From: a virus
Direction: 5' to 3' (one strand)
Length of the DNA: 64,000 nucleotides
IMG/VR virus record: IMGVR_UViG_3300030060_004050
Span: 1-64,000 of that record
Shown here: in pieces, positions 950 to 64,000 of the stretch
How the letters are laid out: every line of letters begins with the position of its first letter
Numbering within the stretch: the first letter of the stretch is position 1
Translations under genes and position numbers: made by a program
Notes under the pieces: generated by a model
What the model was told of the DNA's origin: nothing
Databases searched by the model: none
What the model saw: the letters and a program-made list of their open reading frames with translations, nothing else

Positions 950-1014
950 GGAGTTCCTTAATTAGCACATGGAGATGAAGCAGAGAATCGACAGGTAAAC
1001 TTCAAATCGTGTCA

Positions 1015-2265
1015 TCAGAAGGGGCACTCCGTGTCCGTGATAGTGGCAACCCCGTCCGCGTCTTCCAGCGACTCGGAGTCATTCATGTTGGCTTCTGCAT
1101 CCACCTTCCCGTAGAGGGAGAGGAATGCTTCCTTAGTGTCATCGTCGAACCGAGCAAGGCACATGGCAAGCGCCTTCTCCTTCTCACCGAAGATCTTCCA
1201 GGCGTTGACGATATCCACCAGACGGCGAGTCGAGATGATCTCGTCAACCGCACCCTCATAGAAGGACTTGCGGATGATCTCGCTCCACTGGGTCAGGTGG
1301 TCAGCGAAGGACTTATCGTCGCATCCCGCCTTGGCGAGAATCTTACGCTCGGTAGCCTTGGTGGGATAGGGCTGCTCAAGGGTCACCGGGAAGCGGTCGA
1401 GCATGGCTTCGTTCATGATACCAGTCCCGACGAATCGTCCGTCATCCGAACCCTTACCCTTGGTGTTGGCAGTGGCGAACACCGTGAAACCGGGAGCAGG
1501 AACAACCCACTCACCAGTCTTCTTGATGAACACACCCTTACCTTCCAGCACGGGCTGGAGACACATGAGGTTGGCAGAACCAAGGTCGATCTCGTCGAGG
1601 AGAAGAACACCACCGGACTTCATCGCGTTGACGACGGGTCCGTAGACAAACTTGGTCTCACCGTTCATGAGACGGAAACCACCGATCAGGTCATCCTCAT
1701 CGGTCTGCTTCGTAATGTTGACGCGGTAGCATTCACGCTTCTGCTTGGCGCAAACCTGCTCCACCATGAGGGTCTTACCGTTACCGGAGAGTCCGGTGAC
1801 GAAGATCGGGTAGAACTGGCGCGACTTGACGATCTTCTCGACATCAGTGAAGTGTCCCCAAGCAACGTAACCATCGAAGCGAGGCGGGACGAGAGTGGCT
1901 CGTTCACCACCAGTCATTCCCATAGTCATCGCAGCGATGGTCGAAGTAGCGGCGGTCTCAACCGCACCCTGAACCGGCGCACTGGAACACTGATCGTTGG
2001 TCGTATTGCCTACAGTGTTCGCAACCGGAGCAGGGGCGGGAGACGCAGCAGCACCCGAACCGGCGACCTCAGCCAGTTCGGGGCAATCGTAGAGTCCACG
2101 CCCGACTTTGCGGGTCGAGTCTTGAGTGAGCCAGGACGGAGGGCAAGCGTAAGCACCGGAGGCCTCGCAGGCCTCGACGAGTTCCTGGCGGGAGACGGGA
2201 GAAGTCGCACCCATATCGGCGAGGGCGCGGAGAAGATCAATTTGTCGTGGTTTGAGGTTGTTCAT
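1015..2265 (-). CDS. cobS: CobS-like / MoxR-family AAA+ ATPase
   Basis: Walker A GLSGNGKT, Walker B LLLDEID, ATANTKG and LDRF motifs. Start placed at ATG 2265 after the TAAGGA RBS (the ORF track begins at an upstream TTG). Confidence 0.88.
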   Translation of the reverse strand: MNNLKPRQIDLLRALADMGATSPVSRQELVEACEASGAYACPPSWLTQDSTRKVGRGLYDCPELAEVAGSGAAASPAPAPVANTVGNTTNDQCSSAPVQGAVETAATSTIAAMTMGMTGGERATLVPPRFDGYVAWGHFTDVEKIVKSRQFYPIFVTGLSGNGKTLMVEQVCAKQKRECYRVNITKQTDEDDLIGGFRLMNGETKFVYGPVVNAMKSGGVLLLDEIDLGSANLMCLQPVLEGKGVFIKKTGEWVVPAPGFTVFATANTKGKGSDDGRFVGTGIMNEAMLDRFPVTLEQPYPTKATERKILAKAGCDDKSFADHLTQWSEIIRKSFYEGAVDEIISTRRLVDIVNAWKIFGEKEKALAMCLARFDDDTKEAFLSLYGKVDAEANMNDSESLEDADGVATITDTECPF

Positions 2266-2323
2266 GGTCAAAATTCCTTATCGGACAGAGGAGGTCATGT
2301 CTCGGAATCGTCCCGAGAACATG

Positions 2324-2367
2324 TTAATTATACCACATGGCCGCCCCGGCGCAAGTACTTGTACCCA
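2324..2367 (-). promoter_or_regulatory. Early-type promoter for the cobS-like gene (TTGCGC-N16-TATAAT, extended -10)
   Basis: 44-bp element, 33/44 identical to the divergent element at 2611-2654. Confidence 0.7.
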
Positions 2368-2480
2368 TTTTTCGGTGTTTTTCTTGAGAAAACTGACAGA
2401 TCCTGTCAGTTTACGCCTAAATCCAGATATTATAGGGACTTACAAAAACCCCTCTGGCAGGGCGAAAACGGGGGTTTTAT

Positions 2481-2500
2481 CTGTCCACAAGTTATCCACA
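2481..2500 (+). promoter_or_regulatory. DnaA box (TTATCCACA) with an adjacent degenerate box
   Basis: Perfect TTATCCACA at 2492-2500 and CTGTCCACA at 2481-2489, in a 240-bp non-coding gap. Confidence 0.5.
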
Positions 2501-2610
2501 ATTACCCTAACAGCACCCTAACCGTGATAGTACGTCCGATAACCCCTATAGGGGACGTAAGTCCGGTAATGGCAGGGGTTTAAAAAAAGATGCAAAAAAA
2601 CCCCTAAAAA

Positions 2611-2654
2611 TGGACACAAGCACTTGCATGGGGGCCGATATATGGTACAATTAA
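2611..2654 (+). promoter_or_regulatory. Early-type promoter for the cobT-like gene (TTGCAT-N16-TACAAT, extended -10)
   Basis: TTGCAT at 2624-2629, TGG-TACAAT at 2643-2651; twin of the element at 2324-2367. Confidence 0.7.
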
Positions 2655-2658
2655 GTAT

Positions 2659-4998: not shown

Positions 4999-5037
4999 CT
5001 CTCACAGGATAGAGTCCAATGGATTCTCCTGTTTAAC

Positions 5038-5760: not shown

Positions 5761-6423
5761 TCACCTAAAAGGTAGACCTAAGTTGTTTAGGAAATCTAAT
5801 ATTGTCCACAATGTGTTGTAGTATTCTTGACTTAGGAAGATGGCGTCTGGACTTACTGCATTATTTTGTCCAAATTGAAGTACTCCATCCACATTCTCAA
5901 TAGTAAATGCTCCATTGGGTCCAAACAGGACATTTAAGTCACCCATACCACCAGGCGAGTGTTCTCTGAGGAAGTTAAACAAATCATTCACAATATCTCC
6001 CGTATAATCTCCCTGAAGGAATGATCTTTCCGCCCACCTAAGAAAGTCTAGAACCATTCGAACACTTTCGGCGTTTCCTACGTCCAACAAACCTTCAATT
6101 TCAGTTAAAAATGCCTCCCACAAGTTGTTCCATGGTACACCACCACCAGTCCACCAGTCTGGAGGCATTCCCATTATTCTCGATAGGTTTCCCATAATTC
6201 TTTCCCATACTGGATTGTCCATGATATGTCTACCAATGGAAAATCCAGAATCCGAATCCATGGGTCCAGTTAATCTTCCTTTTGGAAAGTTTGGTTCTGG
6301 TGTTGGACGACCTCCACCACCACCACCATCTGCAATGCGAAGCAATCTACCAAGCACTCTTCCGAGTTGCTCATTTAGACCTTGTTGCTTGTCAAAATTG
6401 TCGTATTTTTCGTAAAGATTCAT
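5761..6423 (-). CDS. Putative head-internal (gp21-processed) protein
   Basis: Leader MNLYEKY...GLNE|Q, then a cationic amphipathic helix and a Gly/Pro linker. Confidence 0.6.
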   Translation of the reverse strand: MNLYEKYDNFDKQQGLNEQLGRVLGRLLRIADGGGGGGRPTPEPNFPKGRLTGPMDSDSGFSIGRHIMDNPVWERIMGNLSRIMGMPPDWWTGGGVPWNNLWEAFLTEIEGLLDVGNAESVRMVLDFLRWAERSFLQGDYTGDIVNDLFNFLREHSPGGMGDLNVLFGPNGAFTIENVDGVLQFGQNNAVSPDAIFLSQEYYNTLWTILDFLNNLGLPFR

Positions 6424-6995
6424 GGTAGTGGGTTACCATATCCGTTTTCTAGGATATCAATCATGATGTCTATGAGTCCGTCTACGATACCAAGGATACC
6501 CTCCATGTAGATCTGAAGTTGTTGATCAATTGCAGGATCGGTGTGGTGGAAGAATATTCTTCCGGCGTCTACATCCCAACTGATGGTTATATCCATGTCG
6601 TACAGATAGTCGAGTAATGAATTTGCAGCAGCCTCACTTGCTGAGTTTGGAGTTCCCATTATTTTTCTCAACATCATTCTGAATGCAAGAAATGCGTCTT
6701 CATGTAGTTGAAAGAGACCTGGGAAAATGTTGGGGAGATTGTTGTAGTATTGTTCTGCAACTTCCCGAAGCATACCTAGAATTTCATCAGCATAACCGGG
6801 GTTTACCAGTGAGTCAGGTTTGAAACCTGATTCTGGTTTTGGTTTTGGTGTACGAGGACCTCTTGGTGGTCTTCCACCAACAATTGGAGGAGAAGGCCTT
6901 CTTGGGATTAAGTCACCAAGATATCTGACGAGTCTACCTAAGGCTTGTTCATCTAACTCTATAAATTCTTTAAATGTGTACATTTTTTTATCCAT
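6420..6995 (-). CDS. Putative head-internal protein
   Basis: Leader MYTFKEFIELDE|Q resembles the T4 capsid-targeting sequence MKTYQEFIAE. Confidence 0.6.
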   Translation of the reverse strand: MDKKMYTFKEFIELDEQALGRLVRYLGDLIPRRPSPPIVGGRPPRGPRTPKPKPESGFKPDSLVNPGYADEILGMLREVAEQYYNNLPNIFPGLFQLHEDAFLAFRMMLRKIMGTPNSASEAAANSLLDYLYDMDITISWDVDAGRIFFHHTDPAIDQQLQIYMEGILGIVDGLIDIMIDILENGYGNPLP

Positions 6996-7442
6996 TTATC
7001 CAAACATTTCGTCCAAGTAGTTTCGAATGTCCATCGGGTTGTTTGGATCTGGAGGTCCCATCAAAGGAGATCCCGGCGTTCCAACAGGAGGATCGCCAGT
7101 AATAGGTCCGACAAATCCAGCAGGAACCTCTCCGTAGGGGTTGGAACCGGGAGGACGAGGAGATGCTTGATCAATAAGATCCAAAAGAGATGCGTCATCA
7201 AGATTTGCGTTGTTTGGATCGGTGATAATGTCAACAATCTTGTCTATTTCGGGATCAATTTCAACATCAATATCTGGACCTCGAACAATTCGTTTAACAG
7301 CACGAATTAAAGTCCTGATTAAGTTCTCTTGTAGATAAATGACTTCTTCATTTAACGTATTGTTACGTTTAGCGACGGCTTCTCTTAATTGCTTAAGCAA
7401 AGTTTGTCGATTCCAATTATCGTACTTACCATATAAGTTCAT
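6996..7442 (-). CDS. Putative head-internal protein
   Basis: Start reassigned to ATG 7442 (MNLYGKYDNW, paralogous to the 5761-6423 leader); TATACATA upstream at 7464-7471. Confidence 0.6.
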   Translation of the reverse strand: MNLYGKYDNWNRQTLLKQLREAVAKRNNTLNEEVIYLQENLIRTLIRAVKRIVRGPDIDVEIDPEIDKIVDIITDPNNANLDDASLLDLIDQASPRPPGSNPYGEVPAGFVGPITGDPPVGTPGSPLMGPPDPNNPMDIRNYLDEMFG

Positions 7443-7502
7443 AACTGTCTCCCAGTGGTACAATATGTATACGGCATATATATTTGATATTGGAGAGAAA
7501 AC

Positions 7503-8135
7503 ATGTCCACACCATTTCAAAAATATCTGATTGAACAACTACAAACGGTTCCGAATATCAAACCCTACGATATGGATGGGGATGGTGTCCCTGATCTCAT
7601 TCAAAAACCAGTGGAGCCAGTGAAAGATCCGTTTCCTGGCATAGATGATGACTATTGGAATCCTCCAATGGCTCCCCCTGACATTGATGATATCATGTAC
7701 GCATATCCAGATTTGTTTAATGAGGTAATGCAGGAGTTTGCAGATTGGATAATTGAAAACTTTGCTCAGGGAAATCCAACCATCACTCGGTTGATGAGAC
7801 TTTTTGGATACGGACCAGAAGATCTTTTGAATGCTAATTTAACCGGACAGCAAATTTTAGAAAGTATCATATATGTGATTCAAAACTGGGGAGATCCTAG
7901 TGTTGGTGGACAACTTCCTGACTTCCCGTTTAGAGGACCTATCATGACTGGAAATCTTGGTTCCGGTGAAGGATTTGGTGGTTTGTTCGGAACTGTTTCC
8001 AATCTTCTCAACGACTACTTGGATCAAATCATGGATGGTACGCTTTACGGAGATGATCCCCAAACGGCAGATTACATTGCACAATTCTTGCAAATGTTAA
8101 TCGATGCAATCAATCAACAAGAAGGAAATCCGTAA
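7503..8135 (+). CDS. Putative head-internal protein with a DxDxDG loop
   Basis: Leader MSTPFQKYLIE|Q; contains DMDGDGVPD; GGAG RBS. Confidence 0.6.
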   Translation: MSTPFQKYLIEQLQTVPNIKPYDMDGDGVPDLIQKPVEPVKDPFPGIDDDYWNPPMAPPDIDDIMYAYPDLFNEVMQEFADWIIENFAQGNPTITRLMRLFGYGPEDLLNANLTGQQILESIIYVIQNWGDPSVGGQLPDFPFRGPIMTGNLGSGEGFGGLFGTVSNLLNDYLDQIMDGTLYGDDPQTADYIAQFLQMLIDAINQQEGNP

Positions 8136-8146
8136 ACTTTTCTGGT

Positions 8147-8154
8147 TATACATA
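8147..8154 (+). promoter_or_regulatory. Late-promoter-like TATACATA (representative of a recurring motif)
   Basis: The same octamer lies upstream of genes at 9429, 14033, 38571 and 54731 on plus, and at 7464, 13989, 19331 and 24948 on minus. It differs by one base from the T4 late promoter TATAAATA. Confidence 0.65.
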
Positions 8155-8182
8155 AAACAGACACACTTTCAAGGAGAAACTT

Positions 8183-8374
8183 ATGTCATTTTACATCAAC
8201 GAATTCAAACAACATCTCGCTGACGTTGCTAAGAAGGTAGATCGTCCATACGACGAACCAGCATCACGACGACAGATGCAAGAGACTCGCACCGTGGGCG
8301 AAGTCTATGCTTCAATGCCTAAAAGACCAGTTCCTCAGCACCTAATGGAACAAATTACAAAGCAAAGAAGTTGA
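8183..8374 (+). CDS. Hypothetical protein
   Basis: 63 aa, AAGGAG RBS, TATACATA upstream. Confidence 0.6.
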   Translation: MSFYINEFKQHLADVAKKVDRPYDEPASRRQMQETRTVGEVYASMPKRPVPQHLMEQITKQRS

Positions 8375-8377
8375 AAC

Positions 8378-9016
8378 ATGCATAGGTGGAACGAACTATC
8401 TGAAAGCACACAACGTTGGTTGGAGCAAAATGGCTATCAACCGGATCTTCCTGTTCAGAGATCTCTTCATGAATCTTTGAATGAACCATTAGATGAACAA
8501 ACGGGCAGTGCTATCAGAAACTTACTGCGACTCTTAAAAAGAAGTCCTGAAGTTCCAGATACTCCCGGTGGCGGAGGAGTTCCCATCCCCGGTAGTGGTG
8601 GTGTTCCCAAACCATTCGTTATGGATGATCTTGTAAATATGTTAGATGATTTTCCCACCAGCGGTCAAGGTGGAATGCTCGGTATTCTTCAGTCTATCCT
8701 AAATGGAAGTCTAACAGGAAAGGCTCTCGAAAATCAAATGCAATTGTATGGTAGAATGTTCCGACAGTTTGGTTGGGAGTTCTATGACAATGGCGGTAAC
8801 GTAGGAATTAGAGAAATTAAGGGATTTGAGCCTTCCGGTAATCCTGTGGTCGCATCGGAACAAGGATTCTATGATACGTTAGCAGAGATTCTTTCTGATC
8901 TCTTTGGTCAAAACAACATCCCATGGAGTCCCGGAATGGTGATTCCACCAAGTTCGATCTCTCCAAACTTCCCTGCCGGTGGAGGCGGACGATTCGTACC
9001 CTTCGATGAAATTTAA
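8378..9016 (+). CDS. Putative head-internal protein
   Basis: Several LxE sites (LHE, LNE, LDE|Q), then the helix SAIRNLLRLLKRS and a Pro/Gly linker. Confidence 0.6.
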   Translation: MHRWNELSESTQRWLEQNGYQPDLPVQRSLHESLNEPLDEQTGSAIRNLLRLLKRSPEVPDTPGGGGVPIPGSGGVPKPFVMDDLVNMLDDFPTSGQGGMLGILQSILNGSLTGKALENQMQLYGRMFRQFGWEFYDNGGNVGIREIKGFEPSGNPVVASEQGFYDTLAEILSDLFGQNNIPWSPGMVIPPSSISPNFPAGGGGRFVPFDEI

Positions 9017-9034
9017 TTTAAAAAGAGAAAACAA

Positions 9035-9072
9035 ATGAATCTAAACGAACAACTACAACAAGCATATGAAGC
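9035..9072 (+). repeat. 38-bp exact direct repeat (second copy at 16089-16126)
   Basis: ATGAATCTAAACGAACAACTACAACAAGCATATGAAGC occurs at both positions. Confidence 0.9.
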
Positions 9073-9367
9073 AGGTCGTCAACAGGCTCTCAATGAGCAG
9101 GTGATGCCGAATCCATACATGCCAACATCTACCCCAGACATGAAGGGTATGAGTGATCTTAACGATCCGATGCTCTATGGTAAGATGCGATACGGTAAGA
9201 AATACTCCGGTATTCCATCAGGTCAGCAAAGAAGTAGTGGTATGTCTCCTCCGGGTGGCTGGAACACTGGTTATGAAGGCCAGACTTGGGAAGACAGGTT
9301 TGGTAACTTCTACCAATATAAAGGTGGACGGTGGGTACATTTGTCCAAACTCTCCACCAATAAGTAA
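9035..9367 (+). CDS. Putative head-internal protein
   Basis: Leader MNLNEQLQQAYEAGRQQALNE|Q, which is also found at 16089. Confidence 0.6.
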   Translation: MNLNEQLQQAYEAGRQQALNEQVMPNPYMPTSTPDMKGMSDLNDPMLYGKMRYGKKYSGIPSGQQRSSGMSPPGGWNTGYEGQTWEDRFGNFYQYKGGRWVHLSKLSTNK

Positions 9368-9386
9368 AAAAAGAAAACAAAAAAAG

Positions 9387-9411
9387 AAACCCCACTTCGG
9401 TGGGGTTTTTT
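9387..9411 (+). terminator. Rho-independent terminator
   Basis: AAACCCCAC-TTCG-GTGGGGTTT followed by a T run. Confidence 0.85.
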
Positions 9412-9467
9412 ATTGAATCATATTTCGTTATACATATAATACAAACATAGACACAAGCGAGGAAATA

Positions 9468-10457
9468 ATGCCAAGCCCATTTCAAACACATTTAATCAAT
9501 ACTCTTCGAGAGCAAGTTGATCCGAAAATTGCTGCGAATCAACCTTTACGAATGTTTGGACCTACTGGAAAAGAAGTTAACCCAGCAGACGTTGGTATTG
9601 ATGTTAAACCAGTAGACACCGATGGTGAAGTAGAAGTTGTAGATCCTCCAGATCCAGATGATGTAGAAAACGAAGAGGGCGAACAACCAATTGACTATCC
9701 TAATGGACTTGAACCAGTGGACGTTGATGGTGATGGAGTAACAGATCACTGGGTAGACGCTGCCGGAAACATTTATGATGTCACCATCATTTCTGTTAAC
9801 CATAATGGTGTAGATGGGTATATGGAGGTAATTACATACTCCTACACCAACGCAAATGGTGTGACTTATCAATTAGGTTTCGTCAACAACATGTGGCAAT
9901 TAATTGGTGAGGTTAATGGTATTCCAACTCTCATGCCTGGTGTCTTTATCGTGAACTTCCAAGGAGGAGGCACTCCCGTGTGGGGATATCAAGATCACCT
10001 CGGAAACTACTGGTTTACCATTGGGGATCCATACGCAACCAATCCACCAGCAACTTGGACAAACCCACTGACAGGTGGTCAAGTTGCTGGTGATCAAGTT
10101 GATTATCCACAGGGTTGGAGTGTTTGGATGGATTTCCAATTCGACAGCAACGGAAATCCAGTTGGTGTAAGTGGAATTCCACTTGTTCCCGGCGGTGGTC
10201 AGCAAAACACTATCCGTCCAGGCGCATCCAGTATTCCGGGTACACAAACAGGAATTTTTGTTGGAGTTAACATTCCATTTCCCAGTGAGTCATATGGTGG
10301 TAGTCCATTCCTACACCGAATTATGTGGGGACATTTTGTTAACTTGTATCTTGAAATATTCGGAGAACATCCACCAGAGTCTTCATGGCCTACAAACGCA
10401 GACTGGTGGGATATATGGTCTCAACCACCATTAGGATACGGTCCTCCCTATAGTTGA
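9468..10457 (+). CDS. Putative head-internal protein, aromatic/Gly/Pro-rich
   Basis: Leader MPSPFQTHLINTLRE|Q (cf. MSTPFQKYLIE|Q); contains DVDGDGVTD; TATACATA upstream. Confidence 0.6.
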   Translation: MPSPFQTHLINTLREQVDPKIAANQPLRMFGPTGKEVNPADVGIDVKPVDTDGEVEVVDPPDPDDVENEEGEQPIDYPNGLEPVDVDGDGVTDHWVDAAGNIYDVTIISVNHNGVDGYMEVITYSYTNANGVTYQLGFVNNMWQLIGEVNGIPTLMPGVFIVNFQGGGTPVWGYQDHLGNYWFTIGDPYATNPPATWTNPLTGGQVAGDQVDYPQGWSVWMDFQFDSNGNPVGVSGIPLVPGGGQQNTIRPGASSIPGTQTGIFVGVNIPFPSESYGGSPFLHRIMWGHFVNLYLEIFGEHPPESSWPTNADWWDIWSQPPLGYGPPYS

Positions 10458-10479
10458 AAACTAAACAAGGAATAAAAAA

Positions 10480-10908
10480 ATGTCAAACATTAAAAGTATA
10501 ATCGCAGAGTATTTACAAGAACAGGGTAGTGTATCAGTTCCATCTCCACCAGGCGCCGGGGGTGGTGCAATCGACTGGAGCGGAGGGACATTCCAAGGAG
10601 GAGTTCTCACCAATATCAGTGGAAATGGTGCAGGACAAGGTGGACCTCCAACTCCCGGTGGCGGAATCGACTGGGGCGGTGGACAAAACCAAGGTGGTAT
10701 CCTTACTCCAATTATGAAACCAGACTTTACTGGTGGTGGTGCTGGTGCTGGTGGTGGCCAAGGCAAACCCACCAACCTTCCACCTTGGGCAATCGGCAGA
10801 CCACAAGTCGGTATTCGTCCCGTCATAGGATCGGGTGGTCAACTTGGTGTTGGTGGAAGATTTGTACTTCAAGGACTTGGTGACGTAAAACCACTACCAA
10901 AACGATAA
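10480..10908 (+). CDS. Gly-rich putative head-internal protein
   Basis: Leader ...AEYLQE|Q; internal duplication GG.IDW.GG..QGG.LT.I. Confidence 0.55.
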   Translation: MSNIKSIIAEYLQEQGSVSVPSPPGAGGGAIDWSGGTFQGGVLTNISGNGAGQGGPPTPGGGIDWGGGQNQGGILTPIMKPDFTGGGAGAGGGQGKPTNLPPWAIGRPQVGIRPVIGSGGQLGVGGRFVLQGLGDVKPLPKR

Positions 10909-10920
10909 GGAAAATATATA

Positions 10921-11223
10921 ATGCCAATTTATGAATATGAATGTGAGTCGTGTGAGCATGTATTTGAAGTGATGCTTGGAATGAATGATCGTGATAAACC
11001 TCTTGAAGATCCTTGTCCTGAGTGTTCCGAAAAAAGTGTGCGAAGATCGGTTGGTATGTTTCAAGCCGGAGCAGATTCTACCATGACGGTGGATAAGATG
11101 TGTCCCGGATTCTCTAAGAGAATGGATCATATCAAAAAAGGTGCGATGATCAATGAATCCGCAAGGAAGAACATTGATCGGGCACAAAACTTTAGTCCCC
11201 ATGGATACCTGAAACCAAGTTAA
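10921..11223 (+). CDS. FmdB-family zinc-ribbon protein
   Basis: MPIYEYECESC...CPECS with two CxxC pairs. Confidence 0.85.
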   Translation: MPIYEYECESCEHVFEVMLGMNDRDKPLEDPCPECSEKSVRRSVGMFQAGADSTMTVDKMCPGFSKRMDHIKKGAMINESARKNIDRAQNFSPHGYLKPS

Positions 11224-11325
11224 TGGATAATGACTTTTTCATTTTACTTTTATTGACATGTGTAATGCTCCTTGATATATGGTCACCGGAGGACAAAGAA
11301 TAGATAGGTAAGCAAGGAGACTTAC

Positions 11326-12558
11326 ATGGCACTAGAATTTTCAGAGATTGCGACTCTTGGATGCCTATTCTACAGTGAAAGAGAATTGAAAAAAGCAGCG
11401 AGTGACGTAGGGACACTCGCTAAGTTTACTGCTACTGTTCGAGATAAAGTAAACAAAGATCGATTCGTCAAGTTCGGAACAGGAAAAGCAGAGTTCATTC
11501 GTGCCATGGATCCCACAAATAAAGTGGTTCTTGATGATATGTGTAGAGGTATCTCTGCTGCACTTGCAATCAAGAAGTGGATGACTCAGCACCACAACGA
11601 ACCAACAGACACAAAAATTAAAGCCGGATACATGACTGGTAATGTCTGGCCTTCTCCCGTCGATGCATTTAAAATCGATGCGTTTGGTATGGCAGACTAC
11701 AACTCCTCGGACTTCATTCTATACACCGGGAGACAGGGAACCAACGAATACTACTATGGCATTTCTCTCAAGAAGAAAAATGTAGAACATGCTGCCGATC
11801 CCACCCTAATTAATAAGGCATTTGATTCTGTCATGGACGGTAGAGAATTTGACAAGATCAAAGATGACATCAAGACACTGAGAGTCTCTTGGTTTGCGAA
11901 CAAAGTACGAGAGGCGAGTAAGCAAGGACTAATCCAAATAGAATCCGCACACGAAAAACTACCAGATGAAAAACTTATACTTTCAAGTCCTGCTGGAACC
12001 AAAAAATCATACCCTAATATCAAAGGTTTGTTGAAGGAAGGGTATGAGTCTGGTAATGGGTTTAGAACGTGGATGAACCGACAGGTTGGTAGGGGAGATC
12101 TCTATAGTTCTATGATGAAAATTATTGAACCTCACATGGAGATGTTTGCAAACTCCTTGATTAACTTAGTTCTCAAGGTAAATCTAAACGACAAACTAAA
12201 CGCAAACAAAGATCTTAACAAGTACTATTTTGGATTTGCACTAGCAACTGGGGTAGGACAGATGAAAAAGGACGTTCCTTTCGTTGGTACGGGATCTGTG
12301 TACCCACAGGAGAGTGTCTTGTGTGCTTTGAGTCATCTTGCAAGTTCTAAGAAACCATTCAAGATGGTTCAGGTTCCAAACCCCGCCGGCGATGAATCAG
12401 ACGCAGCAAAGGTGTTCTTTGAAATTCGCAAGGGTAATGTTGCTATTTTAGATCTGCAAGTTCGCTATAAAGGTTCTTTCACTGCACAACCTCAGTTCCA
12501 GGCATTCCTCACCAAAGACTTTAAGAGAATTATCGCTGGCGAATGCGTTAATCCTTGA
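11326..12558 (+). CDS. Putative PD-(D/E)xK / restriction-endonuclease-like protein
   Basis: SSDFIL...YGISLKKK resembles a D...SxK nuclease core; AAGGAG RBS; TTGACA at 11253. The function is an inference. Confidence 0.4.
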   Translation: MALEFSEIATLGCLFYSERELKKAASDVGTLAKFTATVRDKVNKDRFVKFGTGKAEFIRAMDPTNKVVLDDMCRGISAALAIKKWMTQHHNEPTDTKIKAGYMTGNVWPSPVDAFKIDAFGMADYNSSDFILYTGRQGTNEYYYGISLKKKNVEHAADPTLINKAFDSVMDGREFDKIKDDIKTLRVSWFANKVREASKQGLIQIESAHEKLPDEKLILSSPAGTKKSYPNIKGLLKEGYESGNGFRTWMNRQVGRGDLYSSMMKIIEPHMEMFANSLINLVLKVNLNDKLNANKDLNKYYFGFALATGVGQMKKDVPFVGTGSVYPQESVLCALSHLASSKKPFKMVQVPNPAGDESDAAKVFFEIRKGNVAILDLQVRYKGSFTAQPQFQAFLTKDFKRIIAGECVNP

Positions 12559-12567
12559 TATATAAAA

Positions 12568-12780
12568 GACAACCTCCCGCCTGTGACTCTGAGCGGGAGG
12601 TCGTCTACTATGATGACGGTCGTAAGGTAGCGAAATTCCTTGGTGTAGATTAAAACACAGAATAATCTACACCGTGCATGGATGGCGCAACGTTCTGGAA
12701 CACTGTCGCCAAGTTGCCCGGCCGCCTGATTTTGTATAATTGAAAAAACGACGGCACCACTTAAGGCGTCGTCGTTTTTT
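12568..12780 (+). ncRNA. Putative structured RNA mimicking 23S rRNA helices 69-71
   Basis: 12616-12642 matches the universal 23S segment ACGGTCCTAAGGTAGCGAAATTCCTTG at 26/27 positions, with H69-like and H71-like hairpins. It is bounded by TATATAAA (12559-12566) and a terminator. Confidence 0.6.
12743..12780. terminator. Bidirectional terminator
   Basis: AAAAAACGACGGC...GTCGTCGTTTTTT. Confidence 0.8.
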
Positions 12781-12846
12781 CGAGTTAAAGTATTGGTTTC
12801 TTTTACTCACTGTTATATGTATAAAACCACAGTAAAAAGAGAACAC

Positions 12847-12871
12847 AAAAAACCCCTCTTACGAGGGGTTT
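12847..12871 (-). terminator. Terminator for ORF 12901-13944
   Basis: AAACCCCTC-TTAC-GAGGGGTTT, with the A run giving a U tail on the minus strand. Confidence 0.8.
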
Positions 12872-12900
12872 CTTGTTTAAATTTAAAATTATTTTTCGGA

Positions 12901-13944
12901 TCAACCTGGTCCTCCGGGACCACCGGGACCACCACCACCGCCGGGAGGATCACCACCACCAGTGTCATCGCCTCCGGGAGGATCACCACCACCAGTGTCA
13001 TCACCACCATCATCAACATCATCCCCTGGCGGTTCCTCGGGAGGATCACTTGGCGGAACTGGAGGTCCACCTGATTCGGTGTTTTGGTGTTCGTTATTCT
13101 CCAACCAATCCAAAAGTTCTGCACCCAACCAGATTGCACCTGCAACGGCAGCAGCGATGAGTACAGCCTGGAACCAAGCGGGTTGCCTGTCCCACCAACC
13201 CGCAAGTCCGCCTTCTGGTGCGTTCCAATCAGAGGGTTCGTCTGGCACCCATGCTCCATCGTCATACACACCATCACCGTCAGGATCTGCTACCCATTGA
13301 CCGTTAGCGAGTCTACGGACAACGTATGGTACTCCGAGGTATTGAGGTGGATTTCCGGGAAGAAATTCAATGTAAAGTCCACCACCATGAGCGATGTGTG
13401 CAGGCATACCGTTTCCAGCAGGAACGCTGAACAGTGGAATACCCATGTCATCGAACATTAAAAATTGCCAGTTACCGGGAATTGGTTGAACTTGACCGTT
13501 CATATAAATGTACTGTTGTGCGATTGCACCGTCAGGACCGATGACTCGGTAGATCTTAATAAGATTACCACCGATTTCAATTTCTACTAGGTTTACCTGA
13601 TAACCTGCTGGTAGTGGGTAAAGTCCGTTTGCAGTGAACCAATCGATCAACCACTGTGGTAGAACTTGAACGGGAACACCCTCTGAGTCTTGTGTACCAT
13701 TGTCATCAACAATAACACCACCACTCTCTACTGGTCTAATTGTAAGATTTGGCTTTGATGGTCTTTTACCCATAATAGGACCTGGTGGGACATTGGGTGC
13801 AAGTTTAAGGCCCTGGTCGCCACCTGCTTGCTCAAACATAGTACCATAATACATCCACCTCATCGGGGAAGGTGATGAAAGTACTTTCTCTAGTGCATCT
13901 TCAAACTGTTCTTGAAGCATTCGTTTAAATGAATAGTCGCTCAT
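12901..13944 (-). CDS. Putative head-internal protein with a single transmembrane helix
   Basis: Leader MSDYSFKRMLQE|Q; contains DPDGDGVYD; hydrophobic segment WFQAVLIAAAVAGAIWLGAELL; acidic Gly/Pro tail; TATACATA upstream. Confidence 0.6.
   Translation of the reverse strand: MSDYSFKRMLQEQFEDALEKVLSSPSPMRWMYYGTMFEQAGGDQGLKLAPNVPPGPIMGKRPSKPNLTIRPVESGGVIVDDNGTQDSEGVPVQVLPQWLIDWFTANGLYPLPAGYQVNLVEIEIGGNLIKIYRVIGPDGAIAQQYIYMNGQVQPIPGNWQFLMFDDMGIPLFSVPAGNGMPAHIAHGGGLYIEFLPGNPPQYLGVPYVVRRLANGQWVADPDGDGVYDDGAWVPDEPSDWNAPEGGLAGWWDRQPAWFQAVLIAAAVAGAIWLGAELLDWLENNEHQNTESGGPPVPPSDPPEEPPGDDVDDGGDDTGGGDPPGGDDTGGGDPPGGGGGPGGPGGPG
12941..13002. repeat. 29-bp tandem coding repeat (33-bp period, GGDDTGGGDPP)
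   Basis: CCGGGAGGATCACCACCACCAGTGTCATC at 12941 and 12974. Confidence 0.85.
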
Positions 13945-14074
13945 GTATTTTTCTCCATACTCGGTAGGATTACCTATTGATTGTACATTATGTATAAGAC
14001 TATTTTCTTCAACGAACCAAACTCAACTCTGTTATACATAATCATGAAGAACTTTCCAAGACTAGGAGAATACA

Positions 14075-14344
14075 ATGGCAGGAAAAGACGTTTACAAAGT
14101 AGCACAGGGGATTCCTTCGTCAGCAGGACCTACTGGGGATACTACCATATATGGTGTTGCAATATACAACGGTCATGCATCGGGGACAGGTTCGATTGGT
14201 GTTCAAACGGTGAACGGACAAAATATTCAATTTAAAAATGTTCCGGCTGGATCAATACTTCCTGTTCATCACTCTAAAGTCTACGGTGTAACTGCCGATG
14301 CAGCATTGAGAACCACAGCGACTAACATTATCTCTCTACTTTGA
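14075..14344 (+). CDS. Small virion protein resembling the head-spike base family (RcGTA Rcc01079-like)
   Basis: The C-terminal pattern FKNVPAGSILPV..KV...TTATNIISL is recalled from that family; late motif upstream. Confidence 0.5.
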   Translation: MAGKDVYKVAQGIPSSAGPTGDTTIYGVAIYNGHASGTGSIGVQTVNGQNIQFKNVPAGSILPVHHSKVYGVTADAALRTTATNIISLL

Positions 14345-14352
14345 GGATTTAA

Positions 14353-14862
14353 ATGAAAGATTATAGAACATTTCTATCCGAACAAGTAGAACTTAATGAA
14401 AAGGCAAAAAATACATTGTCTACATTAGCAGGTTCTCTTGGTGGACAAGCAGACAAAGCAAACACCATTGCAAGCACCAGAGGAGTCACTGTTAAAATTG
14501 ATCCCTCTGATGTCTCTATGATAAAAGCAATATCAGATAGAACTGTTTATAACTTTGATGCTCTTTTGAGTGGGTTCGAAGCACTTTCTTCATACACAAT
14601 ACGTCCAGAGGAGAAGGCAAACTACAAAAGAACCCTGTCTCAACTAAGAGATGAAGATCCTAGAAAAGTAAAGATACTTCAAGAGTTAGAAAATATAATG
14701 GTTCTTCCTGCAAGTGCGGACAGAACATATAGAACACAGAGTGTTCTTGACACACTAAACAACATTGCAACTGAGATGGGACAGGGAAGTTTGTCCTATG
14801 ATCAGGTGCAACCACAAACATACATACCAGGCAGGTATATGAATTTCGGTAGGGGCAACTGA
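14353..14862 (+). CDS. Putative head-internal protein
   Basis: Leader MKDYRTFLSE|Q closely resembles the T4 capsid-targeting sequence. Confidence 0.6.
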   Translation: MKDYRTFLSEQVELNEKAKNTLSTLAGSLGGQADKANTIASTRGVTVKIDPSDVSMIKAISDRTVYNFDALLSGFEALSSYTIRPEEKANYKRTLSQLRDEDPRKVKILQELENIMVLPASADRTYRTQSVLDTLNNIATEMGQGSLSYDQVQPQTYIPGRYMNFGRGN

Positions 14863-16502
14863 TGAAACTTAGTAAAAGAGATTTTAAATCGTTTAATAAG
14901 GAGGAGCAAGAACTTCTCTCAATGGTTGCTACTATGACAACTGGTGGATCCCCGGTTGTGGAACCTAAAAATTTACATCTCATGACAAAACAAGGGATGA
15001 AAGAAACCCTTGACATGATGAAAAAGGAACAGAAAAATATGTCATCAAAGGGTAAAAAGTTAGTGCAGTCAATTCTCAAAAAAGCCAAACCTCTAGCAGA
15101 GCAGGTTCAGTTTAGTCAGTACGGTAGGAAACGTCCTGACGAAGAAGAGATTCGTAAGATCGCACAGATGACACTGAACAATGCAAAGAGAAACATGGAG
15201 AAACTGGCTCCTGAAATGAAGGGTATGATGAAACCCGGAGCCGTTCGTCCACTTGAGACTGGTCAGCCTGGTGCTGTAAGTGCTGATCTTGGGTTTGATG
15301 ATCTTGCAGGGATGGTAAGAAAACCATCTCTACCTCCACCACCATCTACTGGATCACCAGTGATGCCTGGTATGGAACAGAAACCACCTATGCCTCCAGC
15401 ACCAACAATGGACGATCAACCCGCACTTCCACCTAAACCCAGACAAGCACCCCCACCTCCCGGTGGTATGCCTGGAATGCCTCCAATGCCTGGTATGGGT
15501 GGTCCTCAACCTTCTGAAACCGAAGGACCAAGAGCAATGGAACCTGCAAAGGACTTTGCTCAGAGGATGGGAATCAAAGATGTCGAAAGACACCATCTTC
15601 GTCCAGAAGAGGACGATGCTCCTGTAGACATGGCTCCAGAAACCGCAGATGCTCCCGGACCAGGAATGCCCCCTGCTGGTATGATGGCTCCACAAGCAGG
15701 TCCACAACAAGGACAACCAGTTCCTCCACAACTAGCACAAGATCCTGCTGCACCCAAGGAGATGCCTCGACAACTTCCTCCCGGAACAACCGAAGCATCA
15801 CAAGAGTTTATTGACAAGTATGCAGGTCAAATCAAGTCTTTCCTAAAGAACATTGCAAGGGAAGAAGAGGAAAAGTTTGCTAGGGCCAGAGATCTCACTG
15901 CTATGCCAAAAGCACCTATGAAAGAACAAGCAGTCAACGCAGTCGGTAGTGGTATGTCTCCTGTTGTCGGTGGAGAGGGTGAGATCAAAGGACGAGACAA
16001 GATGCTTGGTGGTAAGACTGCTGGAATGCGTCGGCGCAAAATGATGGAAAATCATACATATAGAACAAACCTTCAAGGAGAAGATGACATGAATCTAAAC
16101 GAACAACTACAACAAGCATATGAAGCCGGAAAACAGTCTGCTTTGAATGAGCAGATGTCAGGCGGTGGCGTAGGTCCTATCTTTACACCCGGACAAAGAC
16201 CAACTAGTCCTTCCCTCCAACCCAACTACGTTCCTCCCGCAGCAAATCCAAACTATAACCCAGGCCAACCCGGACATGTTCCCGGTGCAAAACCAAGAAA
16301 GCCTGGGACGGGTGGATTCCGGATTCCCGCTAGATTTGATAAGAATGGTGATGGAAAGATTGATGCTAAAGAAAGAAGAGCATATATTGAATATATGAGG
16401 CAAATGTACAAAAGATATCTTGAATATAGGCGAACCACCAATGACAATCCTCCGATGCCTTTCAATCAATATTTCAACCAACAAGGATCAAGTCAACTAT
16501 AA
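14862..16502 (+). CDS. Pro/Met-rich multi-module putative head polyprotein (contains a gp23-like segment, a second leader and an EF-hand-like loop)
   Basis: Several xxE|Q sites; EQAVNAVGSGMSPVVGGEGEIKGRD; internal AAGGAG RBS with ATG at 16089; DKNGDGKIDAKE. Confidence 0.65.
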   Translation: MKLSKRDFKSFNKEEQELLSMVATMTTGGSPVVEPKNLHLMTKQGMKETLDMMKKEQKNMSSKGKKLVQSILKKAKPLAEQVQFSQYGRKRPDEEEIRKIAQMTLNNAKRNMEKLAPEMKGMMKPGAVRPLETGQPGAVSADLGFDDLAGMVRKPSLPPPPSTGSPVMPGMEQKPPMPPAPTMDDQPALPPKPRQAPPPPGGMPGMPPMPGMGGPQPSETEGPRAMEPAKDFAQRMGIKDVERHHLRPEEDDAPVDMAPETADAPGPGMPPAGMMAPQAGPQQGQPVPPQLAQDPAAPKEMPRQLPPGTTEASQEFIDKYAGQIKSFLKNIAREEEEKFARARDLTAMPKAPMKEQAVNAVGSGMSPVVGGEGEIKGRDKMLGGKTAGMRRRKMMENHTYRTNLQGEDDMNLNEQLQQAYEAGKQSALNEQMSGGGVGPIFTPGQRPTSPSLQPNYVPPAANPNYNPGQPGHVPGAKPRKPGTGGFRIPARFDKNGDGKIDAKERRAYIEYMRQMYKRYLEYRRTTNDNPPMPFNQYFNQQGSSQL

Positions 16503-60885: not shown

Positions 60886-61530
60886 ATGAAACTAATTACA
60901 GAAACAACTGAAGACATTAAACTCATCAAAGAAAATGTAGAGGGTGGTAATCCAAACTATTACATTAGTGGTGTGTTTATGCAAGCCGAACAAAAGAACC
61001 GAAACGGGAGAATCTATCCCAAAGATGTTCTCATGAACGAAATTAAAAAGTATAATCAAGACTTTGTTTCGGGAAAGAGAGCATTTGGTGAACTTGGACA
61101 TCCGGACGGTCCAACCGTAAACCTAGAAAGAGTATCCCACCTTATTACAGATTTACATGAAAATGGCGATGATGTGATGGGTAAAGCAAAAATCATGGAC
61201 ACCCCCATGGGTAAGATTGTAAAGAATCTTCTTGATGAAGGCGCTCAACTTGGAGTTTCCTCCCGAGGAATGGGTAGTTTAGAAGAAAAAGGTGGTAAGA
61301 AAATCGTAGGTAAAGATTTTATGCTTGCTGCCGTTGATATTGTCGCAGATCCATCTGCACCAAATGCATTCGTCGATGGAATCATGGAAGGTAAAGAGTG
61401 GATTTGGGACAATGGTATGATCAAAGAGTCTACCATTGCTGGATATAAGAACATAATCAATAAAGCAAGTCAAAGAACAGAAGACGATATCGCAACTTTC
61501 TGTTTTGCCGACTTTTTGTCCAAATTATAA
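60886..61530 (+). CDS. gp21: Prohead protease gp21
   Basis: MKLITE, KNRNGRIYP, GELGHP, GVSSRG.GS and DIVADPSAP.AFV.G motifs; start at ATG 60886 after GGAGGAG. Confidence 0.96.
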   Translation: MKLITETTEDIKLIKENVEGGNPNYYISGVFMQAEQKNRNGRIYPKDVLMNEIKKYNQDFVSGKRAFGELGHPDGPTVNLERVSHLITDLHENGDDVMGKAKIMDTPMGKIVKNLLDEGAQLGVSSRGMGSLEEKGGKKIVGKDFMLAAVDIVADPSAPNAFVDGIMEGKEWIWDNGMIKESTIAGYKNIINKASQRTEDDIATFCFADFLSKL

Positions 61531-63008: not shown

Positions 63009-64000
63009 ATGAGTAATCTCGAAACCGCAGCCCAGTTCTTGGGTGAGAAATGGAAGCCCATCATTGAGCATCCAAGTCTTCCCGCCATTAAGGACTCATA
63101 TAGAAAGAACGTCACAACCGTTCTTCTTGAGAACCAAGAGAAGGCACTTCAAGAGCAGGCTAACAACATTGTAGGTGGCGGTATGTCGCCTGTCGTAGGT
63201 AGTGAAGGTGAGATTAAGGGTTTCGATCCTATTCTTATCTCGCTCGTTCGTCGTGCTATGCCTAACCTAATGGCATACGATATCTGTGGTGTTCAGCCAA
63301 TGACTGGACCTACTGGACTTATCTTCGCACTTCGTGCTAAGTTTGCCACACAGGATGGTACTGAAGCCCTCTTCAACGAACCTGACTTTACCTTCTCCGG
63401 TTCTACCAGTGCAACTGGTGGTACTGGTATCACTCACGGTGCTTCCGGTACTGATGGTGATCCAATTGGTCAAGCAGCATTCCGAGATGGTGCTAGTGCT
63501 GATGGTAACGCCAACTCTTACTCCGGTGCTACCGTACAGGGTGGTCTTTCTACTTCTGTCGGTGAAGTCCTTGGTGCATCTGGTAACTTCGTATTCCCAG
63601 AGATGGCATTCAGCATCGAGCGAACCTCGGTTGAAGCCAAGACTCGCGCCCTCAAGGCAGAGTACACCACTGAACTCGCACAGGACCTCAAGGCTGTTCA
63701 CGGACTAGACGCTGAGACTGAACTTGCTAACATCCTTAGCACCGAAGTCCTTGCTGAAATCAACCGTGAAGTCATCCGTACCATCTACCGAATTGCTAAA
63801 CTTGGTGCCCAGCAGAGTGATCTCTACTTTGGACCAGGTGGTACTACAACTGCTGGTGCCCTCAAGGCAGCAACTGGTGGTGGTGCAACCGCTATCGCAA
63901 CTGCTGGACTCGGTGGTATCTACGACCTCGACAAGGACTCTGACGGACGTTGGAGTGCTGAGAGATTCCGTGGACTCCAGTTCCAGTTAGAGCGTGAAGC
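63009..64000 (+). CDS. gp23: Major capsid protein gp23 (partial, runs off the window end)
   Basis: Translated by hand: MSNLETAAQFLGEKWKPIIEH...FDPILISLVRRAMPNLMAYDICGVQPMTGPTGLIFALR; AAGGAG RBS; TATATAAA at 62950. Confidence 0.97.
   Translation, partial: MSNLETAAQFLGEKWKPIIEHPSLPAIKDSYRKNVTTVLLENQEKALQEQANNIVGGGMSPVVGSEGEIKGFDPILISLVRRAMPNLMAYDICGVQPMTGPTGLIFALRAKFATQDGTEALFNEPDFTFSGSTSATGGTGITHGASGTDGDPIGQAAFRDGASADGNANSYSGATVQGGLSTSVGEVLGASGNFVFPEMAFSIERTSVEAKTRALKAEYTTELAQDLKAVHGLDAETELANILSTEVLAEINREVIRTIYRIAKLGAQQSDLYFGPGGTTTAGALKAATGGGATAIATAGLGGIYDLDKDSDGRWSAERFRGLQFQLERE

What the first reader, a model, noticed from the sequence alone, without database searches (positions are those of the whole stretch)
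15924..15998. 25-aa copy of the mature major-capsid N-terminus inside a cargo ORF
Seen: EQAVNAVGSGMSPVVGGEGEIKGRD (15924-15998) versus gp23 EQANNIVGGGMSPVVGSEGEIKGFD (63153-63227) is 20/25 identical. The copy begins exactly at the predicted gp21 site, and many identical residues use different codons, so the similarity is maintained at protein level. The copy is followed by a basic stretch (GMRRRKMME) instead of the gp23 PILISLVRR. Inference: a peptide that mimics the gp23 N-arm, to dock cargo on the inner capsid wall, modulate assembly or size, or act as a decoy for host sensors that recognise the capsid protein (CapRel- or Lit-like precedent).
Basis: partly seen in the sequence, partly recalled or inferred. 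Interest (0 to 1): 0.75.

Follow-up and report, generated by a model that had tools for sequence, protein, structure and literature searches.

The report
Capsid-arm copy inside a head protein
An uncultured marine T4-like phage keeps, under protein-level selection, a free copy of the first 25 residues of its mature capsid protein (the "N-fist") together with the protease cut site, near the end of a disordered head-associated protein; phage T4 has an unstudied small gene of the same kind, so the idea can be tested in a model phage.

Summary
Window 15924-15998 and 63153-63227 encode 25-residue peptides that are 20/25 identical (E 3e-8 within the genome; profile-profile E 1.6e-13). Twelve of the 20 shared residues use different codons.

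In gp23 the segment is the mature N-terminus just after the L-Q-E|Q maturation site. It is equivalent to the T4 "N-fist" and is conserved in about 85 environmental gp23 genes.

The carrier (14862-16502) is a conserved, mostly disordered, Pro/Gly/Met-rich protein. It lies in an island of genes whose leaders end in hydrophobic-x-E|Q. The copy, preceded by M-K-E|Q, is its best-conserved block.

The same module occurs in an unrelated modular family, in a 58-residue mini-protein, and in T4's own sequence version in T4 gp61.1 (17/37 identical to T4 gp23 57-93). Each copy matches its own phage's gp23 at deep level; at fine level the tracking is mixed.

Best reading (about 0.45): a gp21-processed head-internal protein whose freed N-fist replica engages the partners of the gp23 arm during assembly. 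The role is inferred, not shown.

Earlier agents of this scan found the T4 61.1-type mimic on other DNA. I found no published description.

The parts
14862..16073 (+). Core of the carrier protein 'X' (404 aa): helical N-domain (about residues 1-80), long disordered Pro/Gly/Met-rich middle, helix 311-341, then the capsid-arm copy and a basic tail
   Evidence: ORF. Fourteen homologues and alignment A1. Conserved synteny in 8 loci. AF2 model with mean pLDDT 54; only the N-domain and a few helices are confident. No Pfam or PHROG family.
15918..15926 (+). Predicted gp21 maturation site M353-K354-E355, cut after E355 (next residue Q356)
   Evidence: E355 and Q356 are invariant in all 15 family members. 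The site aligns with L47-Q48-E49|Q50 of gp23. It fits the hydrophobic-x-E|Q pattern of the leaders in this genome. Cleavage itself is inferred.
15924..15998 (+). 25-residue copy of the mature gp23 N-terminus (N-fist equivalent), carrier residues 355-379
   Evidence: It is the most conserved block of the family (20 invariant columns in about 30, against a mean column identity of 35%). Predicted disordered on its own (pLDDT below 50).
15999..16073 (+). Arm-like linker and basic tail after the copy (K-M-L-G ... M-R-R-R-K ...); the carrier ends here in relatives
   Evidence: Alignment A1. All non-gp23 carriers have L-G-K/R followed by an R/K cluster at about the spacing of the gp23 V-R-R element.
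16074..16502 (+). Read-through fusion. CAA stands where relatives have the stop, followed by an AGGAG ribosome site and an ATG at 16089 that opens a separate leader-bearing module (137 aa)
   Evidence: Sequence. Relatives end after ...T-N-L. The module's first 23 residues are 87% identical to the start of ORF 9035-9367. In L129 the corresponding gene is a separate ORF.
63009..64000 (+). Major capsid protein gp23 (runs past the window end; 504-codon frame in the genome)
   Evidence: Pfam PF07068, E 2.1e-135. About 50% identity to gp23 of Melnitz, pelagimyophage and cyanomyoviruses. Matches solved T4 gp23 structures.
63153..63227 (+). Original segment in gp23: E49 of the L-Q-E|Q site plus the first 24 mature residues. 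Equivalent to T4 gp23 residues about 65-91 (N-fist)
   Evidence: query E66 aligns with T4 S85. The same motif sits directly after an (L/I/M)-x-E site in about 85 environmental gp23 genes.
60886..61530 (+). Prohead maturation protease gp21
   Evidence: Pfam Peptidase_S77, E 3.3e-37.
14075..14862 (+). Two small genes (89 aa and 169 aa) always found directly upstream of X. The 169-aa protein starts with a T4-CTS-like leader ending F-L-S-E|Q
   Evidence: Synteny in all X loci. Leader scan.
5761..14862 (.). Island of about 11 Pro/Gly-rich ORFs with short N-terminal leaders ending in hydrophobic-x-E|Q (putative head-targeted cargo)
   Evidence: 10 of 62 ORFs against about 1.8 expected, nine of them in this island. 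None has a PHROG family.

Best explanation
The carrier X is a prohead-internal, core-associated protein of a T4-like phage, processed by the maturation protease gp21. Near its C-terminus it carries a replica of the gp23 cleavage junction, the 25-residue N-fist, and an arm-like basic stretch.

In T4 this gp23 segment lies disordered inside the unexpanded prohead. There it is thought to contact the scaffolding core, and length mutations map to it. On expansion it moves out and clamps four neighbouring subunits.

The proposal is that the replica engages the same partners (scaffold core or neighbouring shell subunits) during assembly. This would place X or its C-terminal peptide at the shell. gp21 would then cut at M-K-E|Q, exactly as it cuts gp23 at L-Q-E|Q, separating the disordered body from a basic N-fist peptide of about 50 residues.

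Shown:
- the sequence copy and its conservation;
- the matching site pattern;
- the genomic company of leader-bearing genes and of gp21;
- the recurrence of the module in other proteins, including T4 gp61.1;
- that copies follow their own phage's gp23 at deep level.

Inferred: cleavage, head localisation, and the binding partner.
For: - The copy is real and selected at protein level. It is the best-conserved block of an otherwise fast-evolving family; neighbouring genes are 73-90% identical while X is 43-67%.
- E|Q is invariant in X. The phage's leaders, its gp68-like protein and gp23 all end in hydrophobic-x-E|Q. gp21 is encoded in the window.
- X shares its Gly/Pro/Met-rich composition with the gp68-like core ORF at 60486-60881 and lies in the leader-bearing island.
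- A profile search of 1.84 billion representatives gave 24 hits. These comprise X-type proteins, gp23 fragments, an unrelated modular family with the module 76 residues from the C-terminus, and a 58-aa leader + copy + basic-tail protein.
- T4 gp61.1 is 17/37 identical to T4 gp23 57-93, E 1e-9. Copies match their own gp23 and not the other phage's. In a five-genome comparison the cognate pairing ranks in the top 4 of 120 permutations.
- T4 literature:
  - Residues 66-105 are disordered and point inward in the unexpanded head, probably contact the core, and carry length mutations (PMC9546572).
  - The N-fist is 25 residues and touches four subunits (PMC9958956).
  - Alt and gp21 have C-terminal propeptides (PMC9026906).
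Against: - There are no virion proteomics, no expression data and no complex model, so cleavage and localisation are untested.
- The P3 residue in X is Met, Phe, Thr or Tyr rather than the Leu or Ile seen in the leaders.
- X lacks a clean N-terminal T4-type targeting leader.
- The sequences after E|Q in the other leader-bearing ORFs are unrelated. The 25 residues are therefore not needed for cutting, and their role has to be something else, still unknown.
- Mini-proteins such as T4 gp61.1 already have a leader. The copy is therefore more likely a payload than a mere address tag.
- Coupling to gp23 is not obligatory:
  - The G009 homologue keeps the site and the D-K-M-L-G element but has a decayed copy, while its gp23 is intact.
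  - In complete genome G007 the related segment differs from its gp23 in the middle.
  - Complete genome G006 carries the motif only in gp23.
- In mature T4 capsids the N-fist is on the outside, which is hard to reach for an internal peptide.
Confidence: 0.45

Rival explanations
1. Structural patch. The released N-fist peptide is built into the mature lattice. It fills N-fist sockets that lack a gp23 donor, for example next to the portal vertex or at vertices, or adds extra clamps. On this reading it is a minor capsid component and not cargo.
For: - In T4 each N-fist binds two subunits of its own capsomer and two of a neighbour, and helps form the Soc site (PMC9958956, PMC9546572).
- The copy covers exactly the fist plus part of the arm.
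- No gp24-type vertex protein is found in the held part of the genome.
- The copy is disordered alone, as expected for a segment that folds on binding.
Against: - Sockets without a donor are few, and the need for such a patch is undocumented.
- Published T4 maps report no extra density assigned to gp61.1.
- The copy decayed in G009 and G007 while gp23 kept the motif.
- The fist ends up outside the shell, while a leader-targeted peptide starts inside.
Confidence: 0.17
2. Assembly regulator. The copy competes with gp23 for the scaffold core or for gp21. This would tune the timing of maturation cleavage or the head size, in the way of a trans-acting competitor such as SaPI1 CpmB or T4 Inh.
For: - T4 length mutations A66D, A94V and G97S lie in the copied segment (PMC9546572).
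- Minor core proteins and DarA/Hdf or CpmB-type extra scaffolds change head size (PMC12810830).
- The junction itself is copied, not only the fist.
Against: - gp23 is present in roughly a thousand copies per head, so a competitor would have to be abundant.
- Other leader-bearing proteins already compete for gp21.
- T4 Inh has no such copy.
- Nothing is known of a 61.1 phenotype (one search found no paper).
Confidence: 0.15
3. Immune decoy or titrant. The free copy occupies a host sensor or factor that recognises the nascent gp23 N-terminus or the gp21 substrate junction, blunting an abortive-infection response.
For: - Capsid proteins and phage proteases are known triggers: Gol-Lit (PMC3014915), CapRel (PMC9712102) and protease-activated CBASS (PMC12991175, title and abstract only).
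- T4 gene 61.1 lies among early or middle genes next to primase.
Against: - The copy ends before the most conserved gp23 block after the arm, the region described as Gol (PMC3014915; alignment A3).
- The copies are joined to leaders and E| sites typical of head-targeted proteins.
- In X the copy sits at residue 355 of a disordered protein lying among cargo genes.
Confidence: 0.08
4. Evolutionary relic. The copy is a fragment of gene 23 captured by illegitimate recombination and has no function of its own.
For: The copy decays in some lineages (G009, G007).
Against: - Twenty invariant columns persist across carriers that are only 46-95% identical overall.
- Synonymous sites are saturated.
- The module recurs independently in three architectures and in T4.
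Confidence: 0.04

Closest known systems
T4 gp61.1 (NP_049649, 54 aa, annotated hypothetical; gene next to primase gene 61)
   Same: It contains a copy of its own phage's gp23 cleavage junction and N-fist (17/37 identical to T4 gp23 57-93), followed by a Lys-rich stretch. The Glu of the site is aligned. A mini-protein of the same layout but carrying the aquatic motif exists (P0019).
   Different: It is tiny, and a T4-type leader sits directly before the copy. X has a 350-residue disordered body in front and no clean leader. The two copies are unrelated in sequence, since each follows its own gp23. Nothing is published on its function that I could find. PHROG gave no common family.
T4 internal proteins IPI, IPII, IPIII and Alt (capsid targeting sequence, gp21 processing)
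   Same: These are head-internal proteins cut by gp21 after (L/I)-x-E. They are encoded by variable genes, and Alt and gp21 also lose C-terminal propeptides (PMC9026906, PMC3012670). The window holds a whole island of leader-bearing ORFs.
   Different: The T4 leader is a 10-residue N-terminal tag that is removed. Here the conserved element lies after the cut, copies the mature capsid protein and is C-terminal.
N-fist and N-arm of T4 gp23* (residues 66 to about 105)
   Same: It is the homologous segment. It begins at the maturation cut, the fist is 25 residues, it is disordered and internal before expansion, and it clamps four subunits afterwards (PMC9958956, PMC9546572; alignment).
   Different: In X the segment is detached from any HK97-fold body. 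The profile match covers only 30 columns, and Pfam Gp23 does not match X.
Phage P1 DarA-Hdf; SaPI1 CpmB; encapsulin cargo-loading peptides (the last two partly from general knowledge)
   Same: These are protease-processed or peptide-tagged proteins that dock on the inner face of an HK97-fold shell. They can influence head size and can face the DNA with a basic surface (PMC12810830).
   Different: None of them is reported to work by copying a segment of the capsid protein itself. There is no sequence relation.

Membership tests
T4-type leader-bearing internal head proteins (IP/Alt class) | Encoded by a phage with a gp21 (Peptidase_S77) maturation protease | tested here: met
   Window 60886-61530, PF03420, E 3.3e-37.
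T4-type leader-bearing internal head proteins (IP/Alt class) | N-terminal leader of about 10 residues with aromatic residues at positions 4 and 7 and (L/I)-x-E at 8-10 | tested here: inconclusive
   The X N-terminus has a D-F-K-S-F-N-K-E-E stretch shifted by 4 residues and no hydrophobic P3. Clean leaders are present in neighbouring ORFs.
T4-type leader-bearing internal head proteins (IP/Alt class) | Cut by gp21 after Glu and present in proheads or virions | not testable with these tools
   Only the site pattern M-K-E|Q with invariant E-Q is seen. No proteomics exist for this uncultured phage.
gp61.1-type capsid-junction mimic (not described in the literature; noted by earlier agents of this scan) | Contains a copy of its own phage's gp23 cleavage junction and first mature segment | tested here: met
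   20/25 identity, E 3e-8. hhalign E 1.6e-13. Own-versus-foreign matrix.
gp61.1-type capsid-junction mimic (not described in the literature; noted by earlier agents of this scan) | Small protein (about 50-60 aa) with the leader directly before the copy | tested here: not met
   The copy starts at residue 355 of a 404-aa core (546 aa as fused).
gp61.1-type capsid-junction mimic (not described in the literature; noted by earlier agents of this scan) | Basic cluster after the copy | tested here: met
   M-R-R-R-K at residues 391-395. Compare K-K-K-K in T4 gp61.1 and R-R-R in P0019.
Major capsid protein family Gp23 (PF07068) | HK97-fold body matching the Pfam model | tested here: not met
   Pfam finds no Gp23 match in X. 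The genome has one PF07068 gene. The profile match is limited to 30 columns.
Modular 'Y' family (DUF5661-containing proteins with a conserved C-terminal module) | Alpha/beta domain of about 76 residues (F-A-G-K-Q-V-F ... Y-L-K-Y-G) directly after the copy | tested here: not met
   Searching the own genome with profile A6 hits only the two motif copies and no C-domain. X continues differently after the copy.
Gol-type trigger or decoy of Lit-like defence | Contains the conserved gp23 region that binds EF-Tu (Gol) | tested here: inconclusive
   The copy ends at gp23 residue 76, before the most conserved block of alignment A3. The exact Gol coordinates were not in the text I could read (PMC3014915).

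The most novel reading that the evidence does not exclude
T4-like phages in general, T4 included through gp61.1, make trans-acting replicas of the capsid protein's cleavage junction and N-fist. gp21 frees these inside the prohead. They then act on the shell itself, by occupying N-fist or arm contacts to control expansion, head size or vertex and portal neighbourhoods. This would be an unrecognised class of capsid-arm mimic assembly factors, and it recurs fused to different cargo domains.
Probability: 0.3. Interest if true: 0.8.

Novelty: new variant of a known kind. Interest (0 to 1): 0.66.

Why it matters
Head assembly of T4 is one of the best-studied assembly pathways. No trans-acting copy of the capsid protein's N-fist is part of the published model as far as my searches reached.

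The module is conserved. It recurs in three protein architectures in aquatic T4-like phages and, in T4's own sequence version, in T4 gp61.1.

If these peptides dock on the shell or the scaffold, this would add a new way of loading or anchoring head proteins. It could also explain part of head-size and expansion control. It would give a natural address or anchor peptide for engineering packaged cargo.

The hypothesis becomes directly testable in T4 by three routes: deleting gene 61.1, looking for the peptide in heads, and modelling it on the solved lattice.

Tried and rejected
- **GenBank phages.** tblastn of X and of the 30-residue motif found nothing. This may be due to low-complexity masking or short query length, so it is no evidence of absence.
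- **Contig look-up.** The long ENA contigs holding P0008 and P0004 could therefore not be used to pair X with gp23.
- **Pairing in IMG/VR.** All seven other X loci lie on contigs of 42 kb or less without gp23. Fine-scale co-variation for X thus rests on one genome plus G009.
- **Rare X variant.** A pattern scan for a gp23 sharing the 3-residue insertion of variant P0037 found nothing.
- **Second copy in isolates.** A profile search for a second junction copy in Melnitz, Mosig, MED4-213, DSL-LC03 and DLP_6 found only gp23. The first-look filter may miss short copies.
- **Late promoters.** TATAAATA occurs only twice in the window, once before gene 22, and not upstream of the X operon. Expression timing is left open.
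- **Folds.** The motif is disordered in both models. PDB and BFVD searches with the Y model gave only helical-hairpin look-alikes and weak rows naming Inh (TM about 0.28). T4 Inh itself has no junction copy.
- **ESM Atlas.** Uninformative for X.
- **PHROGs.** No family is shared by X, Y, P0019 and the motif segments. I did not confirm the PHROG numbers quoted in earlier notes.
- **Protease exosite.** I considered that the 25 residues are a gp21 exosite needed for cutting. I rejected this because the other leader-bearing ORFs have unrelated sequence after E|Q.

Full report
**Observation**

- The first lies at residues 355-379 of ORF 14862-16502 (546 aa, here called X).
- The second lies at residues 49-73 of gp23 (63009 to beyond the window).
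- In the whole held genome (118.5 kb IMG/VR record, 66% complete) the 25-mer finds only these two places, the second at E 3.1e-8.
- A profile-profile comparison of the X family with gp23 N-termini gives 98% probability and E 1.6e-13. It covers only 30 columns, X 353-382 against gp23 47-76.
- The DNA is 51/75 identical, and 12 of the 20 shared residues use different codons.

The match is therefore not chance and not a recent duplication or assembly artefact.

**What the segment is in gp23**

The phage is a distant aquatic T4-like myovirus. Its gp23 is about 50% identical to those of Melnitz, pelagimyophage Mosig and cyanomyoviruses.

A degenerate DNA pattern for V-G-x-G-M-S-P-V-x-G-x-E-G retrieved 94 stretches from IMG/VR.
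- About 85 are gp23 genes of several divergent clades. In all of them the motif sits two to six residues after an (L/I/M)-x-E site.
- Cultured relatives and T4 have other sequences at this place.
- Alignment to solved T4 gp23 puts window residue E66 on T4 S85. The segment therefore corresponds to about T4 residues 65-91.

In T4 this is the 25-residue N-fist, which starts at the gp21 cut (E65|A66).
- It is disordered and points inward in the cleaved, unexpanded head.
- It probably contacts the scaffolding core and carries length mutations (A66D, A94V, G97S).
- On expansion it moves to the outer surface, clamps four subunits and helps form the Soc site (PMC9546572, PMC9958956).

**The carrier**

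X has no Pfam or PHROG family.
- Fourteen homologues were found. In their alignment the block E-Q-x-x-N-A-V-G-x-G-M-S-P-V-x-G-x-E-G-x-I-x-G-R-D-K-x-L-G is by far the best conserved. In most members it lies 45-60 residues from the C-terminus.
- In seven further viral contigs and in the G009 record the gene order is kept: 89-aa gene, 169-aa gene, X, PD-(D/E)XK exonuclease, two reverse-strand genes, gp32. X evolves faster (43-67% identity) than its neighbours (73-90%).
- AlphaFold2 predicts a helical N-domain (1-80), a long disordered Pro/Gly/Met-rich middle, a helix at 311-341 and a disordered motif.
- The window's X is a read-through fusion. Relatives stop after residue 404. Here a CAA replaces the stop (16074-16076), followed by AGGAG and an ATG at 16089. 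That ATG opens a separate module whose first 23 residues are 87% identical to the start of ORF 9035-9367. In L129 this module is a separate gene.

**The cut site and the company X keeps**

gp21 is encoded at 60886-61530.
- Ten of 62 ORFs start with a short leader ending in hydrophobic-x-E-Q, against about 1.8 expected. Nine of them lie at 5.7-14.9 kb next to X, and the tenth is the gp68-like core ORF.
- Several resemble the T4 capsid targeting sequence. The 169-aa neighbour starts M-K-D-Y-R-T-F-L-S-E|Q. In the T4 leader, targeting depends on residues 4 and 7 and processing on residues 8 and 10 (PMC9026906).
- gp23 has L-Q-E|Q and X has M-K-E|Q.
- The claim that the copy starts at the predicted gp21 site is thus supported by a genome-wide pattern, though not by experiment.
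- After E|Q the other ORFs are unrelated, so the 25 residues are not needed for cutting.

**Other carriers**

A 32-column profile of the motif was run against 1.84 billion representative proteins and gave 24 hits. Besides X-type proteins and gp23 fragments, they comprise the following:
- **A modular family, here called Y.** Members are 171-894 residues with variable N-terminal parts, often DUF5661. They share an invariant C-terminal module of site + copy + R-R-K-K + a small alpha/beta domain of about 76 residues. The motif always lies about 76 residues from the end (fold).
- **A 58-residue protein** made only of a T4-like leader, the copy and a basic tail.

Y homologues occur in about thirty viral contigs. 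Their pre-domain segment varies by lineage.

Following a lead from earlier notes of this scan, I read T4 gene 61.1 from the T4 record. Its 54-residue product aligns with T4 gp23 residues 57-93 at 17/37 identity, E 1e-9, with the cleavage Glu in register, and ends in a Lys run. I found no paper on it.

**Co-variation**

| Comparison | Result |
|---|---|
| T4 gp61.1 vs T4 gp23 | z = 17 against 2000 shuffles, reached by none |
| Window X vs window gp23 | z = 18 against 2000 shuffles, reached by none |
| The four cross pairs | all z below 2 |
| Five genomes holding both genes (T4, window, G023, G026, G007) | summed cognate score in the top 4 of 120 permutations |

At fine scale the picture is mixed.
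- In G023 the copy and gp23 share a rare S-P-H-M variant.
- In the window both have E-G-E-I-K-G.
- In the complete genome G007 the Y segment has the same length as the gp23 segment but differs in the middle.
- In G009 the X homologue keeps an L-Q-E site and D-K-M-L-G, but its copy has decayed while gp23 is intact.
- Complete genome G006, like G007, carries the motif only in gp23. G007 does hold the diverged Y segment above; G006 was not searched for a Y homologue.

**Mechanism**

The best-supported reading is that X is a gp21-processed, core-associated head protein. Its C-terminal replica of the gp23 junction, fist and arm would engage the same partners as the gp23 segment inside the prohead. 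gp21 would then free it as a basic peptide of about 50 residues. I put this at about 0.45.

Because mini-proteins already have a leader, the copy looks like a functional payload rather than a mere address.

The rivals are:
- a lattice patch filling fist sockets (0.17);
- a competitor tuning cleavage timing or head size (0.15);
- an immune decoy (0.08), disfavoured because the copy stops before the most conserved gp23 block, described as the Gol region in PMC3014915;
- a relic (0.04).

Precedents for docking and size effects are P1 DarA-Hdf and SaPI1 CpmB (PMC12810830). The precedent for C-terminal propeptides is T4 Alt (PMC9026906).

**Comparison and novelty**

X works like a T4 internal or core protein, but it fails the strict leader test and is not a gp23 family member. 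It shares the defining copy and basic tail with T4 gp61.1, but not its size or layout.

I class it as a new variant of a known kind: protease-processed head-internal proteins, here with an undescribed capsid-arm mimic module. Earlier agents of this scan reported 61.1-type mimics in other genomes. I verified the T4 case independently.

**Limits**

- There is no expression, proteomic or complex-structure evidence.
- Only one genome pairs X with gp23, apart from G009.

Noticed in passing
window 5761-14862 and 60486-60881: About 11 Pro/Gly-rich ORFs begin with short leaders ending in hydrophobic-x-E|Q, some very like the T4 capsid targeting sequence. That is 10 of 62 ORFs against about 1.8 expected. 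The gp68-like core ORF has the same leader type. This is probably a large repertoire of head-targeted proteins.
   Followed up: partly
window 16074-16502 and 9035-9367: X is fused by loss of its stop codon (CAA) to a downstream leader-bearing module that keeps its own AGGAG ribosome site and ATG. The module's first 23 residues are 87% identical to the start of ORF 9035-9367, so the leader is duplicated. The module also has an EF-hand-like loop (Pfam EF-hand_5, below threshold).
   Followed up: partly
L074:4-918, L140-L171, proteins P0020-P0031 and P0036: A widespread modular phage protein family has variable N-terminal domains (often DUF5661). Its conserved C-terminal module is site + capsid-arm-like segment + R-R-K-K + an alpha/beta domain of about 76 residues. 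The arm-like segment changes type between lineages. In L074 the gene lies next to an endolysin.
   Followed up: partly
L133:4967-5131 (T4 gene 61.1) and L134:6946-7350 (T4 gene 23): T4 gp61.1 residues 2-10 (leader) align with gp23 residues 57-65, just before the cut, with the aromatic residues and the hydrophobic-x-E in register. The T4 capsid targeting sequence may itself resemble the end of the gp23 propeptide.
   Followed up: partly
window 1-5000: G+C is 54-55% here against about 41% in the rest of the window. The region holds an AAA_5 (MoxR/CobS-like) ATPase at 1015-2265 (-) and a 779-aa ORF without any family.
   Followed up: no
L131:3763-4887 (-) in record G009: A divergent X homologue lacks the N-terminal helical domain, has a five-fold G-G-M-P-P-M-D-M repeat, and carries a decayed arm copy behind an L-Q-E site. 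An extra 149-aa Trp/Gly-rich ORF sits between it and the upstream gene.
   Followed up: partly
window 60052-60480: The gp67-position ORF matches several PHROGs of unknown function only through an acidic D-x-D-x-D-G-D calcium-loop-like stretch.
   Followed up: no
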